A stretch of DNA of 64,000 nucleotides from Collinsella sp. (GCA_018370025.1 JAGZBF010000005.1:22198-86197); one strand, 5' to 3'. Positions 3,491 to 49,562 are shown, counted from the first letter of the stretch. Translations and numbers: made by a program. The notes: generated by a model from the letters alone, not told the origin.

Positions 3491-3721
3491 GTGGGCAAAA
3501 AAGGGCAAATATGAGTACTGTTACCTTTTTAGTAACAGCCAAAACCGCCTCAAATGCCGCTCCCACGGCTTACACGCGTCCCTAAATTGATCAAACAACA
3601 CCATAGCGGACTTATATGTGTTTGCGTTAATGAACATATTTTGCTGTTATGTCTATTATTTTGCGAAGGCAATATGATACTAAGATAGCAACCGTACTCA
3701 TATTTGGCATTTTTTGCCCAC
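3491..3721. repeat. About 230-bp AT-rich element bounded by a 28-bp imperfect inverted repeat (MITE-like)
   Basis: GTGGGCAAAAAAGGGCAAATATGAGTAC (3491-3518) versus GTACTCATATTTGGCATTTTTTGCCCAC (3694-3721), 2 mismatches. Confidence 0.6.
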
Positions 3722-3944
3722 AGGGTATTTCCTAGGGAACCGACAACAGCCTTAGGGTCCCGCGCGGCGCCGCTCCCTCCCGGCATCCGCCGACGTTTGC
3801 CCAGATAAAACCGACCAAAATAAACCTGTCCCTTTTTGGTCGGTTTCGGGGTGACAAGGGCTTGCACTTTAGCGTGCGACAGCGGATAATGCCGAACACT
3901 CGACAATACGCTTATTGCTCTTTCTATAGATTGAGGAGGCCCCT

Positions 3945-41505: not shown

Positions 41506-41850
41506 CTAGGCCTCTTCGCCGCCACTGGATTCAGTTACCGTTTCCTCCTCACTATGTTGCGTCTCTCTCGTAGCCTCATCAACTTCTGTTGACGAATGTG
41601 CCTCTTCGTATACTTCGATGTTCGCCTTGAGCATGGTTGCACTCTGTTCAGCAAGAGCGATCTTCCTCTGGTGCTTGTCGTAGGCATACAGTCCGATTCC
41701 ACCTGCGACTAGCGTGGCTACAGAACCGATTACTCCACCCTGGATTCTTCCAACGGAAATCCCGCCCGCTCTGATATTGCTGATCAGCGCCTGAGGCCCA
41801 CCGAGCTCTTTCGCCAGATGCGACAATTGCGCATAGTCCCAAGTCGTCAT
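41506..41850 (-). CDS. Hypothetical single-TM protein
   Basis: GGVIGSVATLVAGGIGLYAY helix and acidic tail; start probably MTTWDY. Confidence 0.6.
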   Translation of the reverse strand: MTTWDYAQLSHLAKELGGPQALISNIRAGGISVGRIQGGVIGSVATLVAGGIGLYAYDKHQRKIALAEQSATMLKANIEVYEEAHSSTEVDEATRETQHSEEETVTESSGGEEA

Positions 41851-41980
41851 TGCCTTTTCCTCACTTTCTTTCACTTCAGCACCGCTTCCACTGGGGTGCT
41901 CACTTTCGACAGTGCTATCATGCCATCGGTAAATAAGACGGTATATGTCCTATAATTGTCTTATCTGTTGTTAATGAGGA

Positions 41981-42892
41981 ATGATTAAGACAATGTACGT
42001 CCGCAAAGATCGCCCTAAGGACATTTTTCCAAAGAGACTCAGCGGTTTGATGGAAAGCTATGAAATAGAAAAGGGGCGCAGAGGCATTAGCAATATCGGC
42101 CTTGCGCGTCTGCTCTATCAAAAGCGTAACGGTGCCGATGATGCCTCGCTAGCCGATGACCGCTATGCAGTGGAAAGGGAGAACGGCCGCAAGGCGATTG
42201 CGAGAAAGATCAGCCGATTTCGAAAAGGAGATCAGTTTCCTCAATGGGATGACCTCGTAGATCTGGCTGACATATTCGGAAAGCCAGTAGGTTTTCTCAT
42301 CGGGGAGACCGATTGTGATACGTACGAGCTCCAAGATATTGCTGACTTCCTTGGTCTCAGCGGCGAGGCTGTTCTGTCCATCGAGCGTATGACGAGAAAA
42401 GTTAGTGCGGAGTGGCTTCCGGAACAGTCTGGCGGCAACGGCGGAGACCATGAGGAATGGGAAAAATACCTCGTGAATGATATGGTCGCGAAGGCGAATG
42501 CCGAGCCAGAAGCTTGCAGGGCAGTGCTCAATCGAATGCTGACCGCAGCAGCGTTTAAAGACCTTGTGCTCTGCCTGTCTGAGGTCGGCGATGCCCAATA
42601 CAATCTGCTTATGGAACGCATTGCAAGTGCGGAAATAGAACTGAGAGACGCAGACGTACTCAGTGACAACCACCCAGACTCCATCATGGGGCAAATGGCG
42701 GCAAAATCCCGATTCAGGGATGCTGCAACACGCCTGCAGGAAGCGGAAAATGCGGTGAGGTCCAGCAGGTATGCAGCTTATGAATGCCATGTCCGCATCG
42801 TTGATGAAATGTTCTCGGATATTACCCAGACTGACGCAAATACCGTAGCCAAAGAGCATGTCAAGCAGAGACAGTCAGGTAACCAGGCGTAG
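41981..42892 (+). CDS. XRE-like HTH protein with an uncharacterised C-terminal domain
   Basis: ISRFRKGDQFPQWDDLVDLADIFGKPVGFLIGETD resembles the end of an XRE HTH; GAGGA RBS. Confidence 0.65.
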   Translation: MIKTMYVRKDRPKDIFPKRLSGLMESYEIEKGRRGISNIGLARLLYQKRNGADDASLADDRYAVERENGRKAIARKISRFRKGDQFPQWDDLVDLADIFGKPVGFLIGETDCDTYELQDIADFLGLSGEAVLSIERMTRKVSAEWLPEQSGGNGGDHEEWEKYLVNDMVAKANAEPEACRAVLNRMLTAAAFKDLVLCLSEVGDAQYNLLMERIASAEIELRDADVLSDNHPDSIMGQMAAKSRFRDAATRLQEAENAVRSSRYAAYECHVRIVDEMFSDITQTDANTVAKEHVKQRQSGNQA

Positions 42893-43280
42893 CCGTCGTA
42901 TCGATACGGAAGTGGGTATAAACCGTCCTGCTGCTTGCATACGTGGTTCCGTTGCCGCCCGTCAGCTTGTAGCAGTTATAGAAGCACTGCGAGTCCGAAA
43001 CCCCGCTCGAAGGCAGCGCCCAGGTGGCGTCGGCGTAGATCGTCACCAGCGACGAGCACCCCGAGAAGCAGTAGGTCAGGTCGGTGAGCGCAGACGGGTC
43101 GAAGCCTCGGAAGTCCAGCTCGGCGGGCGACGAGCGCGAAGCGAACGCGAACCGCACGACTTGACACCTGCGAGGTTGCCCAAACCGGAGACCACCTCCA
43201 GCGCCGTGCATGAGTAGAAGAGGTGGGTCAGGTTCATGGTTGCGAACGTCGCCATGTCTGCCGCGAAGGCGATGCGCTCA
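42861..43280 (-). pseudogene. Frameshifted 3' fragment of a BspA-like leucine-rich-repeat protein
   Basis: FYSCTALEVVSGLGNLAGVKS in one frame and LDFRGFDPSALTDLTYCFSGCSSLVTIY...GGNGT...RIDT...PGYLT in another. Confidence 0.6.
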
Positions 43281-43527
43281 TCGGCCGCCTGGCCTTCACC
43301 TGCTGGATTTCGTCGCGCAGGGCGTCCGCCACCTCGGCGCTCTTGGCAGCCTCGGCCACTTGCCCCTCAAGCTCCTTGATGCGAGCCTCCTGCTTGGCGA
43401 GAAGCGCCTGGTAGCCCCTCTCCGAGTCCACTGCCTGCGGCTCTTCCGCCTGCGCGACCCCTTCTTGGCCGCCCGCCTGCGCTGCGACCTCTTCCTCGTC
43501 GTCGATGCTATGGTCGTCTCCGTCCAT
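43234..43527 (-). pseudogene. 5' fragment of an acidic coiled-coil protein (phage scaffold-like)
   Basis: Acidic N-terminus, then LLAKQEARIKELEGQVAEAAK; frameshifts and runs into the LRR fragment. Confidence 0.45.
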
Positions 43528-43726
43528 GTCGGCCTGCCTTTCGATTGACATAGGCCAGCACAAACGAACCGTCCCTTAACCATGCAAATAGGCTAAAGGT
43601 CGGTCACAAAGTGAGGTCATCCAGTCCGTTCGGCAGTTTGTGACCATTAGCAAGAATTAGAGGCAACGCAACGAGCGAACGCTCGATAATGGTCTAGAAT
43701 ATTGGACTTGACATTTGGGAGGCAAG

Positions 43727-43924
43727 ATGGAGACTGTGAACCTTATCCTTGGAATTATCGCGTCTATCGCATCCATCGCCGCCGCCGTCATCTCGCTCCA
43801 AAACAAGCAAGAGATCAAGTCAATCAAAAAGAGTCTAAGCGACAACTCGCAGACCGCTACAGGTAAAGTTGCCACAAACGTCGTAGGCAGCAACAACTCG
43901 GCGAACATCCATGCTTCGCGATAA
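43727..43924 (+). CDS. 65-aa membrane protein with a C-terminal N/S/T/G-rich motif; candidate effector of the downstream defence operon
   Basis: GGAGG RBS and ATG at 43727; TM helix LILGIIASIASIAAAVISL; tail SQTATGKVATNVVGSNNS; overlaps the next gene by 14 nt. Confidence 0.75.
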   Translation: METVNLILGIIASIASIAAAVISLQNKQEIKSIKKSLSDNSQTATGKVATNVVGSNNSANIHASR

Positions 43925-44516
43925 GCCAACGCAGACAAGCCAGAGCGCAATTGGAAAGGTCGCCACGAACATAACCGGCGACTCCAATAGCTATGACTCA
44001 CATGACATAAACATCTACCAGCCCGTCTCGTCTGGCCCGCACCGGCCGCTTACAAAGACGCTCATGTATAAACTCCTGCAAATCATGATTTCGTCGACTG
44101 AGCCAACGGGCGAAGATTTCCCCCTTACGCCTCCGCCTCCTATAGAGAAGAAGCTGATTTACAACCACGCACCGCGTTACCTAAACATCATCAACGAGTA
44201 TTCTGAGAACTACGCTCGTCTCGACAGCGTGATCAAGGAATTCCCCGACAGCGAAGCCATCATCCAAAGGCTGAACAAGATGTTTGTCAATGTGGCAGAC
44301 GTTCGCGATGACGGCAAGCCGTGCGTAGGAAACGGCGATGCACAGCTCAAGCTCATCGAGAACGAGATCTATAACATGATTGTGAATGACGCAAGCTTTC
44401 AGGCTGACGAGGTCCCCGAAGAAATCATCAACCAGTTCTGCGTTGCGTTGATTGCCGTTGCCGTGGCAAAATGCAGAGTCCTTCTGAGGCCAGGTGATGA
44501 CGATGCTGCTGCTTGA
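43911..44516 (+). CDS. ABC-three-component / Lamassu LmuA-like protein (C-terminal domain only, with an N-terminal shared motif)
   Basis: IEKKLIYN..YLNIINEY and the terminal LIAVAVAKCRVLLRP resemble ABC-3C effector C-terminal domains; located upstream of the middle component and ATPase. Confidence 0.7.
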   Translation: MLRDKPTQTSQSAIGKVATNITGDSNSYDSHDINIYQPVSSGPHRPLTKTLMYKLLQIMISSTEPTGEDFPLTPPPPIEKKLIYNHAPRYLNIINEYSENYARLDSVIKEFPDSEAIIQRLNKMFVNVADVRDDGKPCVGNGDAQLKLIENEIYNMIVNDASFQADEVPEEIINQFCVALIAVAVAKCRVLLRPGDDDAAA

Positions 44517-44748
44517 TCGCAATAATGAGCCGACGAGCACGGTCTATTACATCGCTGCCGCCTTGGATGGCTACATCGACCAGAACCCAGGCTTGGACGC
44601 CGGTCAACTCTATGAGGTAACGGCGAACACTCTGGTCAAGAAAGAAGTGAGCTACGACTTCTTTGTCATGGCTTTGGACTTTCTCTTCCTCCTCGGACGC
44701 GTGTCAATAGACGAGAAGGGAGGGCTACATGTTCATCAAGTCGCTTAG
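44503..44748 (+). CDS. ABC-three-component middle component (LmuC-like)
   Basis: About 80 aa with P.STVYYIAA and FVMALDFLFLLG; overlaps both neighbours. Confidence 0.72.
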   Translation: MLLLDRNNEPTSTVYYIAAALDGYIDQNPGLDAGQLYEVTANTLVKKEVSYDFFVMALDFLFLLGRVSIDEKGGLHVHQVA

Positions 44749-46453
44749 AATTCGCAAGACAACAACTGACGAAATAGTTCGCGAGGTCTTATTCCACAAG
44801 GGTGCCAACCTCATCGTCGATACCGAGGACTCCGAATCGCACAATCGCGTTGGAAAAACAACCTTCCTCAAGCTCATTGATATCGCAATGGGCGCCAAGG
44901 ACAGGAAGCTCATTTACACAGACGCCGACACGGGCACGGTGACCGAGGAGCTACGCGATTTCATCGTCACAAACAAGATCGCCGTCGACATGACACTGAC
45001 ATCGGATTTTCCCGATGGCGATGACGTGATTCTCACAATCGACCTCTTCCCGAATGGAAGGTACTACATAGACGGCGAAAAGATGGGGCAGAAAGCTTAC
45101 CAGCAACGACTCAATGTCTTGCTTTTCGGGAACGAAGCGAATGTGCCCACGTTTCGCCAATTGATCAATTCATTTGTCCGCGTGTCCGTAGGCGGGGATG
45201 ATAATTCCTTCCTCAAAACCGTTCCCAGCGGCAGCACATCCATCTACCGGAGTGTCTACAACGCTCTGTTCGGCATCTCAGATCCGGCGCTCGACAAAAA
45301 GCGTGACGACCTCAACAAGGACTTGAACAAGACGCGTGAGTCCATCAAACGCTATAAGAAAGTCCAGAACGTCGATACGGTCAGCGAGCAGCAGCAGATA
45401 CTTGCAGGGCTCGAAGCCGAGCATGAAGAAGTCCAGTGCAAGCTCAACAGCATCATCGACGCCGATGTCTACAGGGCCAACCGCGATGAAATCGCGGCTA
45501 CACGCACCCGATACGCATCTCTGACACTGCAACTCTCAGACATAGACTACAGGCTGCAACGAAATGAAGAGGCCCTGCAGACTGCTATGCAAGAGCGCGG
45601 TAGACAAGCCGACGTTAATTTGAGCAGACGGTTTTTCGAGGAAGTCTGTTCGATGATCCCGATGGTGAATGCATCTTTCGAAGAGATGGTCGCATTCAAC
45701 AACCAGCTCTGCGACAACAAGATTGCCTATTTCGCGAGTGTGGCAGAAAAACTGAAGGCCGAGCGTGCATCTGTGCAACGTGAAATCAGCCAACTGTCAT
45801 CGCAGAACAGCCAATTCATGTCATTGGTGGAGCAAGACCTCATCGATGAGTACGAGTCGCTTCAGGCACGCCTAGTTGAGCTTTCGAGCAGTATCGGCAA
45901 ATGCCGAGAAGTAATAGATACGCTCAACAGCTTTGAGGTAGAACAGACCAGCATTGAGGGAAAAATCGCATCGCTTGGCTCGTCTGATGATGGCGACGAG
46001 CCGCAATCCAACGATTTTGCTGCAATGATGCTTGCGTTTAACGCATTCTTCACTCCGCTTGCCAGGGAGTTCAACAACGAATCGCCGCTGCTCGTTTACT
46101 ATGAAGAGTCGAACAAGTTCCCCGTTGCAATACGTGATACCGCTGGCTCCAGCACGGGCACACGCAAGTCACTCATCGCCGCATTTGATTTAGCGTATCA
46201 GCAGTTTGCAGAATCAAAGGGCATCAAGACTCCGCGCTTCATAGTGCATGACGTCCTTGAAAACATCGAGGGTAAGGTGTTGCGTGACATAATCGCACGC
46301 GCCAGCACAATCAACTGCCAGTACATAGTCGCAGTCCTTAAGGAGAAGCTCGATTCGTCGCTGATACCAGCCGAGGAGCAGGGTAAACTGCAAATCCTGC
46401 AGCTTTCGATTGACGATATGCTTTTCACGCGTGGCAAAGGTGTTGCGTCGTAG
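44729..46453 (+). CDS. SMC/Rad50-like ABC ATPase, DUF2326-type (short LmuB-like)
   Basis: FHKGANLIV..HNRVGKTT Walker A, central coiled coil, GSSTGTRK signature and FIVHD Walker B. Confidence 0.82.
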   Translation: MFIKSLRIRKTTTDEIVREVLFHKGANLIVDTEDSESHNRVGKTTFLKLIDIAMGAKDRKLIYTDADTGTVTEELRDFIVTNKIAVDMTLTSDFPDGDDVILTIDLFPNGRYYIDGEKMGQKAYQQRLNVLLFGNEANVPTFRQLINSFVRVSVGGDDNSFLKTVPSGSTSIYRSVYNALFGISDPALDKKRDDLNKDLNKTRESIKRYKKVQNVDTVSEQQQILAGLEAEHEEVQCKLNSIIDADVYRANRDEIAATRTRYASLTLQLSDIDYRLQRNEEALQTAMQERGRQADVNLSRRFFEEVCSMIPMVNASFEEMVAFNNQLCDNKIAYFASVAEKLKAERASVQREISQLSSQNSQFMSLVEQDLIDEYESLQARLVELSSSIGKCREVIDTLNSFEVEQTSIEGKIASLGSSDDGDEPQSNDFAAMMLAFNAFFTPLAREFNNESPLLVYYEESNKFPVAIRDTAGSSTGTRKSLIAAFDLAYQQFAESKGIKTPRFIVHDVLENIEGKVLRDIIARASTINCQYIVAVLKEKLDSSLIPAEEQGKLQILQLSIDDMLFTRGKGVAS

Positions 46454-46814: not shown

Positions 46815-48032
46815 CTAGTCAAGTACCCGTTGCCTCTCCTCGACCATCTCGCAGAAGCCTCCCACATCCATGAGCCATTCTTGCTGTGAAGGCGTGTAGG
46901 TGGGGAAAAGCTGGGAGGGGATGACGAGCTGGAGCTTGCTGTCACGCATGGCGTTCGTGTAGTCCACGCTCACGGCGGGCTCCAGCGTGATAAGGTGCTT
47001 ACGCTCGATGCGGTTCGCCTCCTCGAGCACCTGCCTCCAGCGCTCCTTGATGGTCGTCTTCGCTCCGAGCATCGTAAGGCTCGAGGAGGGGAACCCCTCA
47101 TCCCGGTAGCACTCGATTGACGGAAAAATGAAGTCCGGCTTCGACTTTCCCTCGGTGTAGGGCTGTGCGGAGTATCGGATTCCCCTACCCTTGAACAGGA
47201 ACTCAAGCTGGTGCTCGAACGCTGTGCCCGCGCGGGACTTCCTGCGCTGGAAGGTCGACATGGTGGTCTTCAGAATGCCGTCGACGTCGAGCTGGCCGTT
47301 CAAATAGGGCGCAAGGTCTCTCTCAAGCAGATGGCGCTCAAACACCTTGAACAGCAATTCCTCGCGCTCGTAGCACGCGAGCAGGCTTCGATCGGGGTCA
47401 TCCGCCCAGTCGAGACCTTCAAGGGTTGAGATGGAGTACTCCGTAAAGTCGATGCCCTTCGGAAACGTATGTCCAAACCTCTTGACCATATCGTCCAAGT
47501 AGATATCCGCGCTCAAGGGAGCGCGCGTCTCGATACCAATCATGCCGAGGATGCGCGAGGCCACCGCACCGATACGGTTGCGCTCGCCCTTTGATACGGC
47601 ATAGCCCGAGCGGTCGGGCTCCTCGAAGCCGAACAGCCACCTCAGCTGCGACTCGATGGTCGAGCCTTTTTTAGCGAAGATGATGAGCAGCCCGAGGTCA
47701 TCGGAGTTGGCGACCACCATGAGGTCGCCAGCGGATGCCTGCCTGATGGCGGGGTTGTCCTTGTAGTAGAGACGGTACTCGGTTCTCGTGGGATGTTTGC
47801 GGCGCGCATCGTACCAAGTCACGGTCCCGTCGCACATCTCCGGCTCCGCCTCGTCGCACATGTAGGCGAACGTGGTGCGGATGTCGCGGATGTCGTCGTC
47901 ACCGAACAGCGACCTCAGCGGCAGCGTGCCGTTGAACTCGTGCTGATTACTCCTACCTGCGTCGATATCGACGTCCGCGAGGGTCTTCGAGACCGCGCCG
48001 TCGAAGTAGCTGCTAAGCGCCCCGTAATCCAT
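46815..48032 (-). CDS. Type II restriction endonuclease, EcoRII-like
   Basis: N-terminal SNQHEFNG and RTEYRLY; catalytic RKSRAG..FE, KPDFIFP and LGAKTTIKERWRQVL. Confidence 0.85.
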   Translation of the reverse strand: MDYGALSSYFDGAVSKTLADVDIDAGRSNQHEFNGTLPLRSLFGDDDIRDIRTTFAYMCDEAEPEMCDGTVTWYDARRKHPTRTEYRLYYKDNPAIRQASAGDLMVVANSDDLGLLIIFAKKGSTIESQLRWLFGFEEPDRSGYAVSKGERNRIGAVASRILGMIGIETRAPLSADIYLDDMVKRFGHTFPKGIDFTEYSISTLEGLDWADDPDRSLLACYEREELLFKVFERHLLERDLAPYLNGQLDVDGILKTTMSTFQRRKSRAGTAFEHQLEFLFKGRGIRYSAQPYTEGKSKPDFIFPSIECYRDEGFPSSSLTMLGAKTTIKERWRQVLEEANRIERKHLITLEPAVSVDYTNAMRDSKLQLVIPSQLFPTYTPSQQEWLMDVGGFCEMVEERQRVLD

Positions 48033-49185
48033 CCTGACACGCTCCCATCATGAGCTTGGCCACCGACCGTATTACAGGGACCGTCACCGAATTGCCGAAC
48101 TGGCGGTAGGCCTGTGTGTCGGAGACCGGGATTATGAACCGGTCGGGAAATCCCTGCAAGCGCGCGCACTCTCTAGGGGTCAGCTTACGGGGGTTCTCGC
48201 CCTCGCCGCGCGAGACCAAGATCTCACTACCGTCCTTATGATAGCGTGCGGAGAGCGTCCTCGTGGTGTCCGATGGAGTGATAAGACCGTAGCCGAACCC
48301 GTTGCCGGCGGCCTCGTGCTTGGCCTTGTATGCTTTCAAATATGACCACAGCTTGTCGGAGAGCACGTACCTCGCGTCCGCATCCTCCTCCAGAATCTCC
48401 GCGGCTTTCTGACCACTGTTCGGGCAGTCGAGGTCGTCCCAAGAGAACTCCACATCGTCGCGAAAGCCAACAATGTAGATGCGCTCGCGGTGCTGGCATG
48501 TCCAACCCTTGGAGTCCAGAACCTTGTAGTGAACGTGGTAACCGAGCTCGTCCTGGAGGACCTGCATGATGACGTCGAACGTTCTGCCCCTGTCGTGACT
48601 GATCAGATTCTTCACGTTCTCGAGCAGGAACGCCTTCGGGCGCTTCTCGTTCAGGATGCGTGCAACCTCGAAGAAGAGCGTGCCCTGCGTCTTGTCTTCG
48701 AAGCCCGTAGCGCGACCAAGGGAGCGCTTCTTGGACACACCCGCAAGCGAGAACGGCTGGCATGGAAAGCCAGCGAGCAGCACGTCGAAGTCGGGGATGT
48801 CTGAAGCGGCGACCTCACGGATGTCCCCCGCCGGGGTTTCGCCGTAGTTCATGCGGTAGGTCTTCTGCGCAAACTTATCCCACTCGCAGGAGAAGACGCA
48901 CCTGCCGCCCAGCTCCTGGAACGGCATGCGGATCCCGCCGATGCCCGCGAACAGGTCGATGAAGGTGAAGGCAGGCTTCCCCTCCCCTGCGGGTGCAAAG
49001 GGGGCGCGATGGCCGAGGGTGGAGATGTACTTCGACTCGGCTGCGGTGGGCCTTGTTTCGCCTGCCTCCCAGCGGCGCACCGTTCGCTCGCCGTTGGGGC
49101 CCATGCCTAGGGCAGCGGCGAATTCCTTCTGAGTCAAGCCGAGCTCCTGTCTCTTGGCCTTTACCTCATCTGCTGATAATTGCAT
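48013..49185 (-). CDS. DNA (cytosine-5) methyltransferase, Dcm/EcoRII/SsoII-like, with an N-terminal XRE HTH
   Basis: FIDLFAGIGG, AGFPCQ, LENV, QHRER, TLSARYHKDGSEIL and QFGNSV; N-terminal RQELGLTQKEFA...VRRWE. Confidence 0.92.
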   Translation of the reverse strand: MQLSADEVKAKRQELGLTQKEFAAALGMGPNGERTVRRWEAGETRPTAAESKYISTLGHRAPFAPAGEGKPAFTFIDLFAGIGGIRMPFQELGGRCVFSCEWDKFAQKTYRMNYGETPAGDIREVAASDIPDFDVLLAGFPCQPFSLAGVSKKRSLGRATGFEDKTQGTLFFEVARILNEKRPKAFLLENVKNLISHDRGRTFDVIMQVLQDELGYHVHYKVLDSKGWTCQHRERIYIVGFRDDVEFSWDDLDCPNSGQKAAEILEEDADARYVLSDKLWSYLKAYKAKHEAAGNGFGYGLITPSDTTRTLSARYHKDGSEILVSRGEGENPRKLTPRECARLQGFPDRFIIPVSDTQAYRQFGNSVTVPVIRSVAKLMMGACQDGLRGA

Positions 49186-49208
49186 GACGCACCTTCTGGA
49201 TAGATAAC

Positions 49209-49223
49209 AGGACAATATGTCCT
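49209..49223. promoter_or_regulatory. Putative methyltransferase autoregulatory operator
   Basis: AGGACA-ATA-TGTCCT palindrome about 25 bp upstream of the start codon; resembles the M.SsoII regulatory site AGGACAAATTGTCCT as I recall it. Confidence 0.7.
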
Positions 49224-49562
49224 CATTTTGCCACAGGGATGAAGAGATAAACTCGTCAGAATAGCAACCTTGCCCCAAACCATGGGTTTCTCACGTCTCC
49301 CACATCCGACAATCCATGTACCACTCAAACCGCGAAGACCCATCTAACCACCGCTGCGTTCTATACGATAGTCGTTCGCCAGGACATTTTTCTGCCGCCG
49401 CAGTCATTAGTCCAAGTGAAAAGCGGCAAGCCGAGAACCTCACGCCTCTCCATCATCAATCATTCCATTTCACAAATGACGCAGCGGCGCAATTAGCAAC
49501 GCGGAGCATGGAACCATGCTATACCCGTCCAAACGATATTGTCCGCGCCCAACAGCTATCAA

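What the first reader, a model, noticed from the sequence alone, without database searches (positions are those of the whole stretch)
43727..46453. Candidate amyloid-signalling Lamassu system: LmuA-like protein and a small membrane protein share a motif
Seen: four overlapping genes encoding a 65-aa single-TM protein, a 201-aa LmuA-like protein, an ~80-aa middle component and a 574-aa SMC-like ATPase. The C-terminus of gene 1 (SQTATGKVATNVVGSNNS) matches the N-terminus of gene 2 (SQSAIGKVATNITGDSNS) at 12 of 18 residues. The conserved residues mostly use different codons (ggt/gga, aaa/aag, gtt/gtc, aca/acg, tcg/agc), which points to selection on the protein. The motif is proline-free and N/S/T/G/Q-rich. 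The LmuA-like protein has no room for the nuclease, protease or hydrolase domain usual in Lamassu. Known: Lamassu LmuB senses foreign DNA and activates LmuA by oligomerisation. Fungal NWD2/HET-S and bacterial BASS pairs are adjacent genes that share a motif at the sensor N-terminus and the membrane-effector C-terminus. Inference: activated LmuA clusters its motif, templates cross-beta assembly of the TM protein and kills the infected cell by membrane damage. I do not know of this pairing having been described for Lamassu.
Basis: partly seen in the sequence, partly recalled or inferred. Interest (0 to 1): 0.92.

Follow-up and report, generated by a model that had tools for sequence, protein, structure and literature searches.

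The report
Lamassu-type defence with paired amyloid-like motif
A four-gene anti-phage module of the Lamassu/ABC-3C kind has swapped its usual enzyme "warhead" for a short sticky peptide motif that is mirrored on a tiny membrane protein encoded just upstream, which suggests that an SMC-like DNA sensor kills the infected cell through prion-like signalling to the membrane.

Summary
Window 43727-46453 holds four overlapping + strand genes. They encode a 65-aa single-pass membrane protein, a 201-aa protein, an ABC-3C middle component (Pfam MC6, E 4e-22) and a 574-aa SMC-like ATPase (DUF2326; PADLOC LmuB).

The tail of gene 1 and the head of gene 2 share 12 of 18 residues. No shuffle reached the alignment score (0 of 2000 and 0 of 5000).

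Gene 2 is a disordered 45-residue N/G/Q/T-rich tail followed by a helical domain that is a divergent ABC-3C CTD10. It has no enzymatic domain.

The pair recurs in every related locus that has enough upstream sequence. These fall into seven diverged clades in two phyla (Collinsella and relatives, a 7.9-kb Lacticaseibacillus plasmid, Clostridium plasmids). The two genes are always separate and mostly overlap by 8-14 nt. The two motifs co-vary: the true pairing is the single best of 5040 permutations.

The gene 2 family has at least 131 clusters at 50% identity, and almost all members are 170-210 aa with a similar tail.

Amyloid templating and killing through the membrane remain inference, by analogy with BASS/Bab-Agp and with LmuA liberation and oligomerisation. 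I found no paper that links Lamassu/ABC-3C with amyloid signalling. I rate it a new variant of known kinds.

The parts
43717..43722 (+). Shine-Dalgarno-like GGGAGG, 4 nt upstream of the gene 1 ATG
   Evidence: Read directly. Purine-rich SD-like sequences also precede gene 1 in 9 other loci shown.
43727..43924 (+). Gene 1: a 65-aa single-pass membrane protein. It has an N-terminal hydrophobic helix (about residues 3-24), a basic linker and a C-terminal N/S/T/G-rich motif.
   Evidence: It is conserved as a 59-86 aa family (alignment; 87 proteins at E<=0.01). Synonymous codon differences exceed non-synonymous ones (14 vs 6 against L027). Hydropathy is 1.8-2.7.
43847..43900 (+). Gene 1 C-terminal motif (residues 41-58)
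   Evidence: 12 of 18 residues are identical to the gene 2 motif. No shuffle reached the alignment score.
43911..43924 (+). 14-nt overlap of the gene 1 stop and gene 2 start (translational coupling, inferred)
   Evidence: The overlap is 8-14 nt in 8 of 8 loci and 11-14 nt in L038, L040 and L048. In L055 there is a 2-nt gap.
43911..44516 (+). Gene 2: a 201-aa effector-less LmuA-like adaptor, made of a disordered N-terminal tail (residues 1-45) and a helical CTD10-like domain (about residues 46-195)
   Evidence: AlphaFold2 gives mean pLDDT 84.7, with blocks 1-40 at 49-59 and 7 helices from residues 49-187. hhalign gives 93.8% probability (E 1.7e-7) against the CTD10 part of an SMEK_N+CTD10 protein. 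The Pfam CTD10 hit is below cut-off.
43938..43991 (+). Gene 2 N-terminal motif (residues 10-27)
   Evidence: The tail is under purifying selection: codons 6-51 show 10 synonymous vs 4 non-synonymous differences against L027. Across the family the tail is enriched in N, G, T and Q.
44497..44748 (+). Gene 3: ABC-3C middle component 6 (LmuC-equivalent). Alternative starts are 44494 and 44503.
   Evidence: Pfam MC6 E 4e-22, 78.4 bits against a cut-off of 27.2. The RefSeq annotation of the near-identical record names it the same.
44729..46453 (+). Gene 4: a 574-aa SMC/Rad50-like ABC ATPase (LmuB-equivalent) with a Walker A GKT at residues 42-44
   Evidence: DUF2326 E 4.6e-14. PADLOC PDC-M68B 1.3e-27 and LmuB 9.4e-14. 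The GKT is read from the translation.
46815..49278 (-). Neighbouring restriction-modification pair (EcoRII-C-type endonuclease 46815-48032; HTH-fused C5 cytosine methylase 48013-49278). This is defence-island context and not part of the module.
   Evidence: Pfam EcoRII-C 6.9e-54 and DNA_methylase 3.4e-91.

Best explanation
This is a self-contained, mobile four-gene abortive-infection module of the ABC-3C/Lamassu family with a split effector.

Gene 4 (SMC-like ATPase) and gene 3 (MC6) form the sensor. Gene 2 is the LmuA-equivalent, reduced to its C-terminal docking/oligomerisation domain (CTD10-like). In place of an enzymatic domain it carries a disordered N/G/Q/T-rich motif of about 25-30 residues. 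Gene 1 is translationally coupled just upstream. It encodes a 65-aa membrane protein whose cytoplasmic C-terminus bears the matching motif.

Proposed mechanism:
- (a) At rest, the gene 2 protein is held as a monomer by the ATPase-MC complex. This is inferred from the Salmonella Lamassu structure.
- (b) Foreign DNA liberates it, and its CTD oligomerises (inferred).
- (c) Oligomerisation clusters the N-terminal motifs, which nucleate a cooperative cross-beta fold. This is inferred by analogy with NLR/BASS and Agp.
- (d) That fold templates the matching motif on gene 1 (inferred).
- (e) The transmembrane helices of gene 1 are bundled into a membrane lesion that kills or arrests the cell (inferred).

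Shown here: the gene order, the domain assignments, the disordered tail, the conserved pairing and the co-variation of the two motifs.
For: System identity.
- MC6 scores 78.4 bits.
- The ATPase matches DUF2326, LmuB and PDC-M68B.
- The gene 2 domain matches CTD10 by profile-profile comparison (93.8%, E 1.7e-7, 116 columns).
- Its best Foldseek hit is YydB in a YydD-YydB model (probability 0.99, E 0.086).

No room for an enzyme.
- AlphaFold2 shows residues 1-45 unstructured (pLDDT 49-59) and residues 46-195 as one helical domain.
- Of 131 family representatives found without any length filter, all but 3 are 49-231 aa. The 3 exceptions are long proteins with repeated short matches.

Pairing.
- The script found gene 1 upstream of gene 2 in 38 of 41 loci with an intact gene 2 frame.
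- Two of the 3 misses lack upstream sequence. The third (L031) was seen by eye.
- Many of these loci are near-identical or duplicates. Independent evidence comes from 7 clades whose gene 2 domains are 24-53% identical.

Co-variation.
- Own-locus motif scores average 53.6 (range 36-77). Cross-locus scores average 28.0 (maximum 45).
- The true assignment is the single best of 5040 permutations.
- The own partner is best in 6 of 7 rows and 5 of 7 columns.

Selection acts on the protein.
- 34 of 74 identical aligned residues use different codons, and nucleotide identity is 42-70%.
- Synonymous changes exceed non-synonymous ones in gene 1 and in the gene 2 tail against L027.

Composition.
- Tails are enriched in N 2.65x, G 2.45x, T 2.2x and Q 2.0x. 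L, K and P are depleted.
- G-x7-G occurs in 73 of 111 tails, against 13 of 111 in the much longer remainders.
- BASS motifs are described as about 25 aa, with conserved G/N/Q and depleted in K, P and L (Dyrka et al. preprint, section read).

Precedents.
- Bab/Agp shows amyloid signalling in phage defence with a non-NLR sensor (sections read).
- The oligomerisation domain of Lamassu LmuA is sequestered and then liberated, and its N-domain is freely exchangeable (abstract and section read).
- The module is the only cargo besides replication genes on a 7.9-kb plasmid.
Against: - No experiment or predictor here shows amyloid formation.
- The AlphaFold2 model of gene 1 is low-confidence (mean pLDDT 64) and draws the tail as helix.
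- Gene 2 does not reach Pfam's CTD10 cut-off (14.9 vs 28.1 bits) and matches no PADLOC LmuA model.
- No Foldseek hit reaches E<=0.001, and the top hit is an integrative model, not a solved structure.
- Co-variation is imperfect. The gene 1 tail of L048 scores higher with L014's head (41) than with its own (36).
- At single-residue level, close relatives do not always change in step (W vs L028).
- V and I are not enriched in the tails, unlike BASS, though the baseline differs.
- Seven clades is a small sample, and kin share ancestry.
- Gene 1 has no globular sheath to mask its hydrophobic helix. Unlike HET-S or Bab, it is probably membrane-inserted all the time, so how toxicity is held off is unexplained.
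Confidence: 0.55

Rival explanations
1. The motifs form a non-amyloid, stoichiometric tether. They make a defined hetero-oligomeric beta structure that constitutively anchors the ABC-3C complex to the membrane through gene 1, for example to meet incoming DNA. Alternatively, gene 1 is a small membrane toxin kept inactive by binding gene 2 and released on activation.
For: Conserved pairing and co-variation fit any direct motif-motif contact equally well. Gene 1 lacks a domain that would mask its helix, so a constitutively membrane-bound partner is plausible. Translational coupling favours co-assembly of the two proteins.
Against: The tail is long, disordered and low in complexity, with an N/G/Q bias typical of amyloid signalling motifs rather than of folded interfaces. 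In the solved Lamassu complex the N-terminal part of LmuA makes no visible contacts at rest (section read).
Confidence: 0.27
2. The two motifs share a third-party partner. They resemble each other because both are recognised by the same other factor (a host protease, a chaperone, the ATPase coiled coil or a phage protein), not because they bind each other.
For: Nothing here shows direct contact between the two motifs. The family-wide generic pattern G-x2-N-x-Q-x2-G-x2-N could be a recognition signal.
Against: A common external partner predicts one conserved motif across clades. It does not predict clade-specific variants that match within each locus (1 of 5040 permutations). No extra conserved gene accompanies the four.
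Confidence: 0.08
3. Artefact. Gene 1 and gene 2 are one frameshifted gene, or gene 1 is a spurious ORF or leader and the similarity comes from a recent local duplication or gene conversion.
For: The two ORFs overlap and lie in different frames. A RefSeq record starts gene 2 at an internal Met, omitting the motif. Some metagenome copies are frameshifted (L029, L030, L035).
Against: The ORFs are separate in all 7 clades across two phyla. No fused form exists among 131 representatives. The motif segments show only 42-70% nucleotide identity and use many different codons. Both gene 1 and the gene 2 tail are under purifying selection. Gene 1 has its own SD-like sequence.
Confidence: 0.03

Closest known systems
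Lamassu / ABC-3C (ABC-three-component) defence systems (LmuA-LmuC-LmuB; DdmABC; B. subtilis Yyd)
   Same: The gene order is effector-with-CTD, small middle component, SMC/Rad50-like ABC ATPase. MC6 and DUF2326/LmuB match. Gene 2 has a CTD10-like docking domain. Sibling MC6+DUF2326 loci carry ordinary effectors: SMEK_N+CTD10 in L042 and L043, and an Mrr-like domain (weak Mrr_cat hit, E 0.0085)+CTD12 in L037. The module sits in a defence island or on plasmids.
   Different: The LmuA-equivalent has no enzymatic N-terminal domain, only a disordered motif. A fourth gene encodes a small membrane protein with the matching motif. A review's list of LmuA effector domains (passages read) names nucleases, a peptidase, hydrolases, TIR, SIR2 and a dehydrogenase, but no such split form. 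The founding ABC-3C paper (Krishnan et al. 2020) was not held, so I cannot exclude that it or its supplements mention this form.
Bab/Agp (BASS11) amyloid-signalling abortive-infection system of E. coli (Ibarlosa et al., bioRxiv 10.1101/2024.11.07.622273; sections read)
   Same: Two adjacent collinear genes. The upstream one encodes a small membrane-targeting protein with the motif at its C-terminus. The downstream sensor or adaptor has the motif at its N-terminus. The motif is about 20-25 aa with Gly breakers. It works in antiphage defence with a non-NLR sensor.
   Different: [quoted passage not shown] The executioner is only 59-86 aa: one hydrophobic helix, a linker and the motif, without the four-helix sheath of Babybell. 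No sequence relation to BASS11 could be tested because no models or sequences were at hand. That paper does not mention ABC, SMC or Lamassu (0 occurrences).
Bell-domain/NLR pairs with BASS1-10 (Dyrka et al., bioRxiv 10.1101/2020.01.06.895854; sections read) and fungal HET-S/NWD2
   Same: The motif is shared between the effector C-terminus and the receptor N-terminus. The genes are collinear and often overlap (42% of their pairs overlap). The composition has a G/N/Q bias and is depleted in K, P and L.
   Different: There is no NACHT/NB-ARC NLR and no Bell or HeLo domain. The hosts are unicellular gut and dairy Actinomycetota and Bacillota, not filamentous multicellular bacteria. The motif sits on an adaptor protein that docks to a separate sensor.
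Effector-associated domains (EADs) and other homotypic adaptor couplings in conflict systems (Kaur et al.; recalled, not read here)
   Same: The logic is the same: a sensor is coupled to a separately encoded effector through a matching module on both proteins.
   Different: EADs are folded domains (recalled). Here the shared element is a short, disordered, low-complexity motif.

Membership tests
Lamassu / ABC-3C | SMC/Rad50-like ABC ATPase (LmuB) | tested here: met
   PADLOC LmuB E 9.4e-14 and PDC-M68B 1.3e-27. Pfam DUF2326 4.6e-14 at 52.7 bits against a cut-off of 28.7. Walker A GKT at residues 42-44.
Lamassu / ABC-3C | Small middle component (LmuC/MC) between effector and ATPase | tested here: met
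   Pfam MC6 78.4 bits against a cut-off of 27.2, covering profile positions 3-75 of 76.
Lamassu / ABC-3C | First-gene product with a C-terminal docking/oligomerisation domain (CTD) | tested here: met
   The Pfam CTD10 hit is below cut-off (14.9 vs 28.1 bits). A 53-sequence family profile aligns to the CTD10 region of a bona fide SMEK_N+CTD10 protein (hhalign 93.8%, E 1.7e-7). The Foldseek top hit is YydB (probability 0.99, E 0.086). Support is moderate.
Lamassu / ABC-3C | Enzymatic N-terminal effector domain on LmuA | tested here: not met
   Residues 1-45 are disordered and nothing else precedes the CTD. There is no PADLOC LmuA hit. Family members are 170-210 aa.
BASS-type amyloid signalling pair | Short motif shared by the C-terminus of the effector and the N-terminus of the sensor-side protein, encoded by adjacent collinear genes | tested here: met
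   seven clades, and the true pairing is best of 5040 permutations.
BASS-type amyloid signalling pair | Composition and length typical of amyloid signalling motifs (about 25 aa; G/N/Q conserved; K/P/L depleted) | tested here: met
   N 2.65x, G 2.45x, Q 2.0x, L 0.51x, K 0.69x, P 0.77x. V and I are not enriched. Compared with the description read.
BASS-type amyloid signalling pair | Motif forms amyloid fibrils or prion-like foci, and the sensor-side motif converts the effector-side motif | not testable with these tools
   This needs ThT, EM, ssNMR and in-vivo foci. ArchCandy and the BASS profile HMMs are not available here.
BASS-type amyloid signalling pair | Bell/HeLo-type helical membrane-targeting domain on the effector, and an NLR (or TGP) on the sensor side | tested here: not met
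   Gene 1 is only a hydrophobic helix, a linker and the motif. It has no Pfam hit at or below E 0.01. The sensor side is ABC-3C. Whether the gene 1 helix corresponds to the conserved N-terminal 'MEPIS' pore-lining helix of Bell domains (text read) could not be tested.

The most novel reading that the evidence does not exclude
A widespread branch of Lamassu/ABC-3C immunity, with at least 100 sequence clusters in Bacillota and Actinomycetota, has replaced enzymatic effectors with prion-like amyloid signalling. An SMC-like DNA sensor liberates an adaptor whose clustered tail templates a matching tail on a 59-86-aa protein. That protein is essentially a 'naked' pore-lining helix, that is, a Bell/HeLo executioner stripped of its sheath. 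If so, this would be the smallest amyloid-controlled cell-death module known. The clade-specific motif variants would act as private signalling channels that insulate co-resident systems from one another.
Probability: 0.35. Interest if true: 0.9.

Novelty: new variant of a known kind. Interest (0 to 1): 0.8.

Why it matters
Amyloid signalling in bacterial immunity has so far been tied to NLR-like receptors and to one TPR-GreA/B-PIN sensor. Lamassu is known only with enzymatic warheads. This module joins the two kinds.

It predicts that the liberation-and-oligomerisation switch of LmuA can drive a templated fold instead of assembling an active site. It also offers a very small and genetically tractable system, a 65-aa executioner and a motif of about 25 aa. 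With it one could test how oligomerisation nucleates a signalling amyloid, how specificity is encoded (motif swaps between the seven clades) and how a bare transmembrane helix becomes lethal.

It also exposes an annotation gap. Gene 1 and the gene 2 tail are unnamed or mis-started in reference annotation, and current LmuA models miss the family.

Tried and rejected
- **Complex prediction** on the gene 2 tail (residues 1-48) with the gene 1 tail (residues 28-65). It gave no verdict (score 0.02, mark 0.32). I do not use it either way.
- **AlphaFold2 of gene 1.** The model is low-confidence and uninformative about the tail.
- **PDB searches.** The sequence search with the gene 2 family profile found nothing better than E 0.18. 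Foldseek found no hit at E<=0.001.
- **Protein Atlas for gene 1.** It returned only unnamed clusters.
- **NCBIfam.** No meaningful hit for any of the four proteins.
- **Viral contigs.** Three scans (A2, P0054, P0029) found no relatives. Two broader alignments were too diverse to scan with. tblastn of the ATPase against phage records found no match.
- **Plasmid tblastn.** Two more family members added no new loci.
- **Unlinked cross-matching.** I matched 85 gene 1 tails against 111 gene 2 heads without genomic context. Results were noisy. A few matches were strong (for example P0228 with P0029 at 69 against a shuffle maximum of 50, and a Streptococcus-type tail with P0133 at 63 against 54-58). 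The 50% representatives usually lack the true partner, so I use this only as a hint of further clades.
- **Reaching Bacillota genomes through a plasmid locus.** This is not possible because W handles have no relatives.
- **EACC1.** I considered this protease-activated pore former (passages read) and rejected it. There is no Pfam hit and no protease gene.
- **Promoter and terminator scan.** No more sites than chance.
- **Krishnan et al. 2020.** The paper was not held.
Full report
**What is there.** Window 43727-46453 carries four + strand genes that overlap head to tail.
- Gene 1 is 43727-43924 (65 aa).
- Gene 2 is 43911-44516 (201 aa).
- Gene 3 is 44494/44497-44748 (83-84 aa).
- Gene 4 is 44729-46453 (574 aa).

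Gene 3 is an ABC-3C middle component 6 (Pfam MC6, E 4e-22, 78.4 bits against a cut-off of 27.2). Gene 4 matches DUF2326 (4.6e-14) and the PADLOC models PDC-M68B (1.3e-27) and LmuB (9.4e-14). It has a Walker A GKT at residues 42-44. Gene 2 has only a sub-threshold CTD10 hit (E 0.041, 14.9 bits against 28.1) and no PADLOC hit. Gene 1 has no family hit.

The record titles of near-identical loci name the organism as Collinsella. Directly downstream lies an EcoRII-type restriction enzyme with an HTH-fused C5 methylase, so the module sits in a defence island.

**The motif match is real.** Gene 1 residues 41-58 and gene 2 residues 10-27 are identical at 12 of 18 positions. Eight of these 12 use different codons, and DNA identity is 30 of 54. 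The best local alignment (25 residues, 13 identical) scores 69. None of 2000 shuffles of gene 1 reached this, and none of 5000 shuffles of both tails did (maximum 51).

**Gene 2 is a docking domain with a disordered tail.**
- AlphaFold2 with a 53-sequence alignment gives mean pLDDT 84.7 and pTM 0.75. Residues 1-40 have block means of 49-59 and almost no secondary structure. Residues 46-195 form seven helices, mostly above pLDDT 90.
- The family profile aligns to residues 200-320 of a 326-aa protein from a sibling MC6+DUF2326 locus (hhalign 93.8%, E 1.7e-7, 116 columns). That protein carries SMEK_N (3.2e-41) and CTD10 (3.2e-32).
- Foldseek found nothing at E<=0.001. Its top row is chain B (YydB) of an integrative model of B. 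subtilis YydD-YydB (E 0.086, probability 0.99, TMq 0.48).
- A profile search of PDB sequences found nothing better than E 0.18.

So gene 2 corresponds to the C-terminal part of an LmuA-type protein, with a motif where the enzyme would be.

**The family is wide and uniformly short.** A profile search over 1.84 billion representatives, with no length filter, found 131 proteins at E<=0.001 (101 at <=1e-10, 38 at <=1e-30). All but three are 49-231 aa. The three long ones match through many short stretches.

Of these, 111 are 160-235 aa. Their first 35 residues are enriched in N (2.65x), G (2.45x), T (2.2x), Q (2.0x) and S (1.5x) relative to the rest of the same proteins. They are depleted in E, L, F, Y, K and P. 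G-x7-G occurs in 73 of 111 tails, against 13 of 111 in the much longer remainders. A loose consensus is G-x2-N-x-Q-x2-G-x2-N.

This matches the published description of BASS motifs: about 25 aa, G/N/Q conserved, K/P/L depleted (Dyrka et al. preprint, section read). V and I are not enriched here.

**Gene 1 is a conserved gene and always a separate one.** I scanned 45 fetched loci by script. Four had no intact gene 2-like frame (one partial, three frameshifted metagenome copies). Of the 41 others, 38 showed a 62-78 aa ORF (59-78 aa from the likely start) with a hydrophobic N-terminus ending at the gene 2 start. Two of the three misses have only 71 and 54 bases upstream. The third (L031) failed my window criterion, but its gene 1 was seen. 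Many of these loci are near-identical or are re-fetches of the same genome, so they are not independent.

Independent evidence comes from seven clades whose gene 2 domains are 24-53% identical:
- the window type (with L027 and L028);
- the L014 type (with L032-L034 and L054);
- L031;
- L048 and L055, from two other families of the same order;
- a 7.9-kb Lacticaseibacillus paracasei plasmid (L038);
- Clostridium plasmids (L040 and L041).

The two ORFs overlap by 8-14 nt in all but L055, where 2 nt separate them. SD-like sequences precede gene 1. Against L027, gene 1 shows 14 synonymous and 6 non-synonymous codon differences, and the gene 2 tail (codons 6-51) shows 10 and 4. Against L028 the figures are 11/9 and 11/14.

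A profile of gene 1 finds 87 proteins at E<=0.01 among 831 candidates. Source names include Collinsella, Clostridium, Lacticaseibacillus, Streptococcus pneumoniae, S. suis, Bacillus cereus and B. multifaciens.

**The motifs co-vary.** I took one locus per clade and scored each gene 1 tail (last 34 aa) against each gene 2 head (first 40 aa).
- Own-locus scores range from 36 to 77 (mean 53.6). Cross-locus scores average 28.0 (maximum 45).
- The true assignment has the highest summed score of all 5040 permutations.
- The own partner is best in 6 of 7 rows and 5 of 7 columns.
- The exceptions involve L048 and L031, which carry the most generic forms of the motif.
- Across the seven loci, 74 aligned residues are identical. 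Of these, 40 share the codon and 34 do not. Nucleotide identity of the aligned segments is 42-70%.

This argues against recent duplication or gene conversion and for selection on the peptides.

**Mechanism.** Shown: the architecture, the domain identities, the disordered tail, the conserved pairing and the co-variation. Everything else is inferred.

In the Salmonella Lamassu structure, the C-terminal oligomerisation domain of LmuA is sequestered by two LmuB and LmuC. The N-terminal domain makes no visible contacts. Liberated LmuA then tetramerises, and the authors note that this explains why effector domains can be freely exchanged (abstract and section read).

In fungal NLR systems and in E. 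coli Bab/Agp, oligomerisation of the sensor is thought to nucleate an amyloid fold in its N-terminal motif. That fold templates the same motif at the C-terminus of a membrane-targeting protein encoded next door (sections read).

Putting the two together gives the model. Foreign DNA liberates the gene 2 protein. Its CTD oligomerises and the clustered tails nucleate a cross-beta fold. The fold recruits and converts the tails of gene 1, and the bundled transmembrane helices damage the membrane.

The basic residues just after the gene 1 helix suggest an N-out, C-in topology that places the motif in the cytoplasm. This is inference from the positive-inside rule.

I put 0.55 on this reading, 0.27 on a non-amyloid stoichiometric tether or anchor, 0.08 on a shared third-party partner and 0.03 on artefact.

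**Against, and open.**
- Nothing here demonstrates amyloid.
- The gene 1 model is poor (mean pLDDT 64).
- Gene 2 fails the curated CTD10 threshold.
- The Foldseek support rests on an integrative model.
- Co-variation is imperfect.
- Seven clades are few.
- A bare hydrophobic helix should be in the membrane constitutively, so what keeps it harmless before activation is unexplained.
- The Bab/Agp paper stresses a conserved N-terminal 'MEPIS' pore-lining helix in Bell-type domains (passages read). Gene 1 also begins Met-Glu/Asp-Thr followed by a long hydrophobic helix, but I could not test any relationship.

**Distribution.**
- The gene 2 family was found in 2 of 60 relatives.
- It was found in 9 of 396 genomes of the class, in 3 of 124 genera.
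- MC6 was found in 2 of 401 genomes of the phylum.

This sporadic pattern is usual for mobile defence genes. On the Lacticaseibacillus plasmid the four genes are the only cargo apart from the replication genes and two hypothetical ORFs. The middle component there is not in the plasmid's gene table but reads open.

**Novelty.** Five searches of the held library addressed this.
- 'Lamassu' with 'amyloid signaling': 0 papers.
- 'ABC-3C': 12 papers, none on amyloid judging by title or abstract.
- 'amyloid' with 'Lamassu': 3 papers, unrelated by title.
- 'amyloid signaling', 'antiphage' and 'BASS' from 2024: only the Bab/Agp preprint.
- 'LmuA' with 'transmembrane': 15 papers, none describing this form in the listing. 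In one of them I read the ABC-3C and Lamassu passages.

The Bab/Agp preprint has no occurrence of ABC, SMC or Lamassu, and a 2026 review of signalling amyloids has none either. The founding ABC-3C paper (Krishnan et al. 2020) and its supplements were not held, and I did not read Kaur et al. Either might mention such a form. I rate this a new variant of known kinds (Lamassu/ABC-3C combined with BASS-type pairing), with high interest.

Noticed in passing
L039 4016-4468 (RefSeq NZ_OY725717.1; equivalent to window 44064-44516): The reference annotation of a near-identical Collinsella aerofaciens record starts gene 2 at an internal Met (150 aa), which cuts off the whole N-terminal motif. Family-wide conservation of the tail and its excess of synonymous changes argue for the upstream ATG at window 43911.
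   Followed up: partly
window 46815-49278 (- strand): An EcoRII-C-type restriction endonuclease (405 aa) and an HTH-fused C5 cytosine methylase (421 aa) overlap each other and lie directly downstream of the module, convergent to it. This is defence-island context.
   Followed up: partly
window 41506-43563: Four ORFs upstream have no Pfam family above threshold: 122 aa on the - strand with a hydrophobic stretch, 303 aa on +, 116 aa on - and 109 aa on - (coiled-coil-like). The same neighbours recur in the RefSeq Collinsella record as hypothetical proteins.
   Followed up: no
L029, L030, L035: Metagenome copies of the module have frameshifts in gene 2, and in L035 throughout. They are probably low-coverage assembly errors or decaying copies. 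Gene 1 is intact in L029 and L030.
   Followed up: no
L038 about 3549-3790: On the 7.9-kb Lacticaseibacillus paracasei plasmid the MC6-like middle component reads open between gene 2 and the ATPase, but it is absent from the plasmid's gene table.
   Followed up: partly
L042 1319-2299; L043 1310-2296; L037 1688-2635 (- strand): Sibling MC6+DUF2326 systems carry conventional first-gene products: SMEK_N+CTD10 on Clostridium and Priestia plasmids, and an Mrr-like domain (weak Mrr_cat hit, E 0.0085)+CTD12 in an actinobacterial genome. The same sensor chassis therefore takes both fused and split effectors.
   Followed up: partly
L040 1383-4210: In one Clostridium botulinum plasmid the four-gene module lies about 2 kb from the annotated neurotoxin gene. 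I noted it only as context.
   Followed up: no
NZ_OY725717.1: The record is labelled 'plasmid 6' but is 899,693 bp in a genus whose genomes are about 2.2 Mb. It looks more like a chromosome piece than a plasmid.
   Followed up: no
P0033, P0094, P0218: Some tails look like two pseudo-repeats of the motif, on either the gene 2 or the gene 1 side. This recalls the two-repeat arrangement described for HET-s and some BASS effectors.
   Followed up: no
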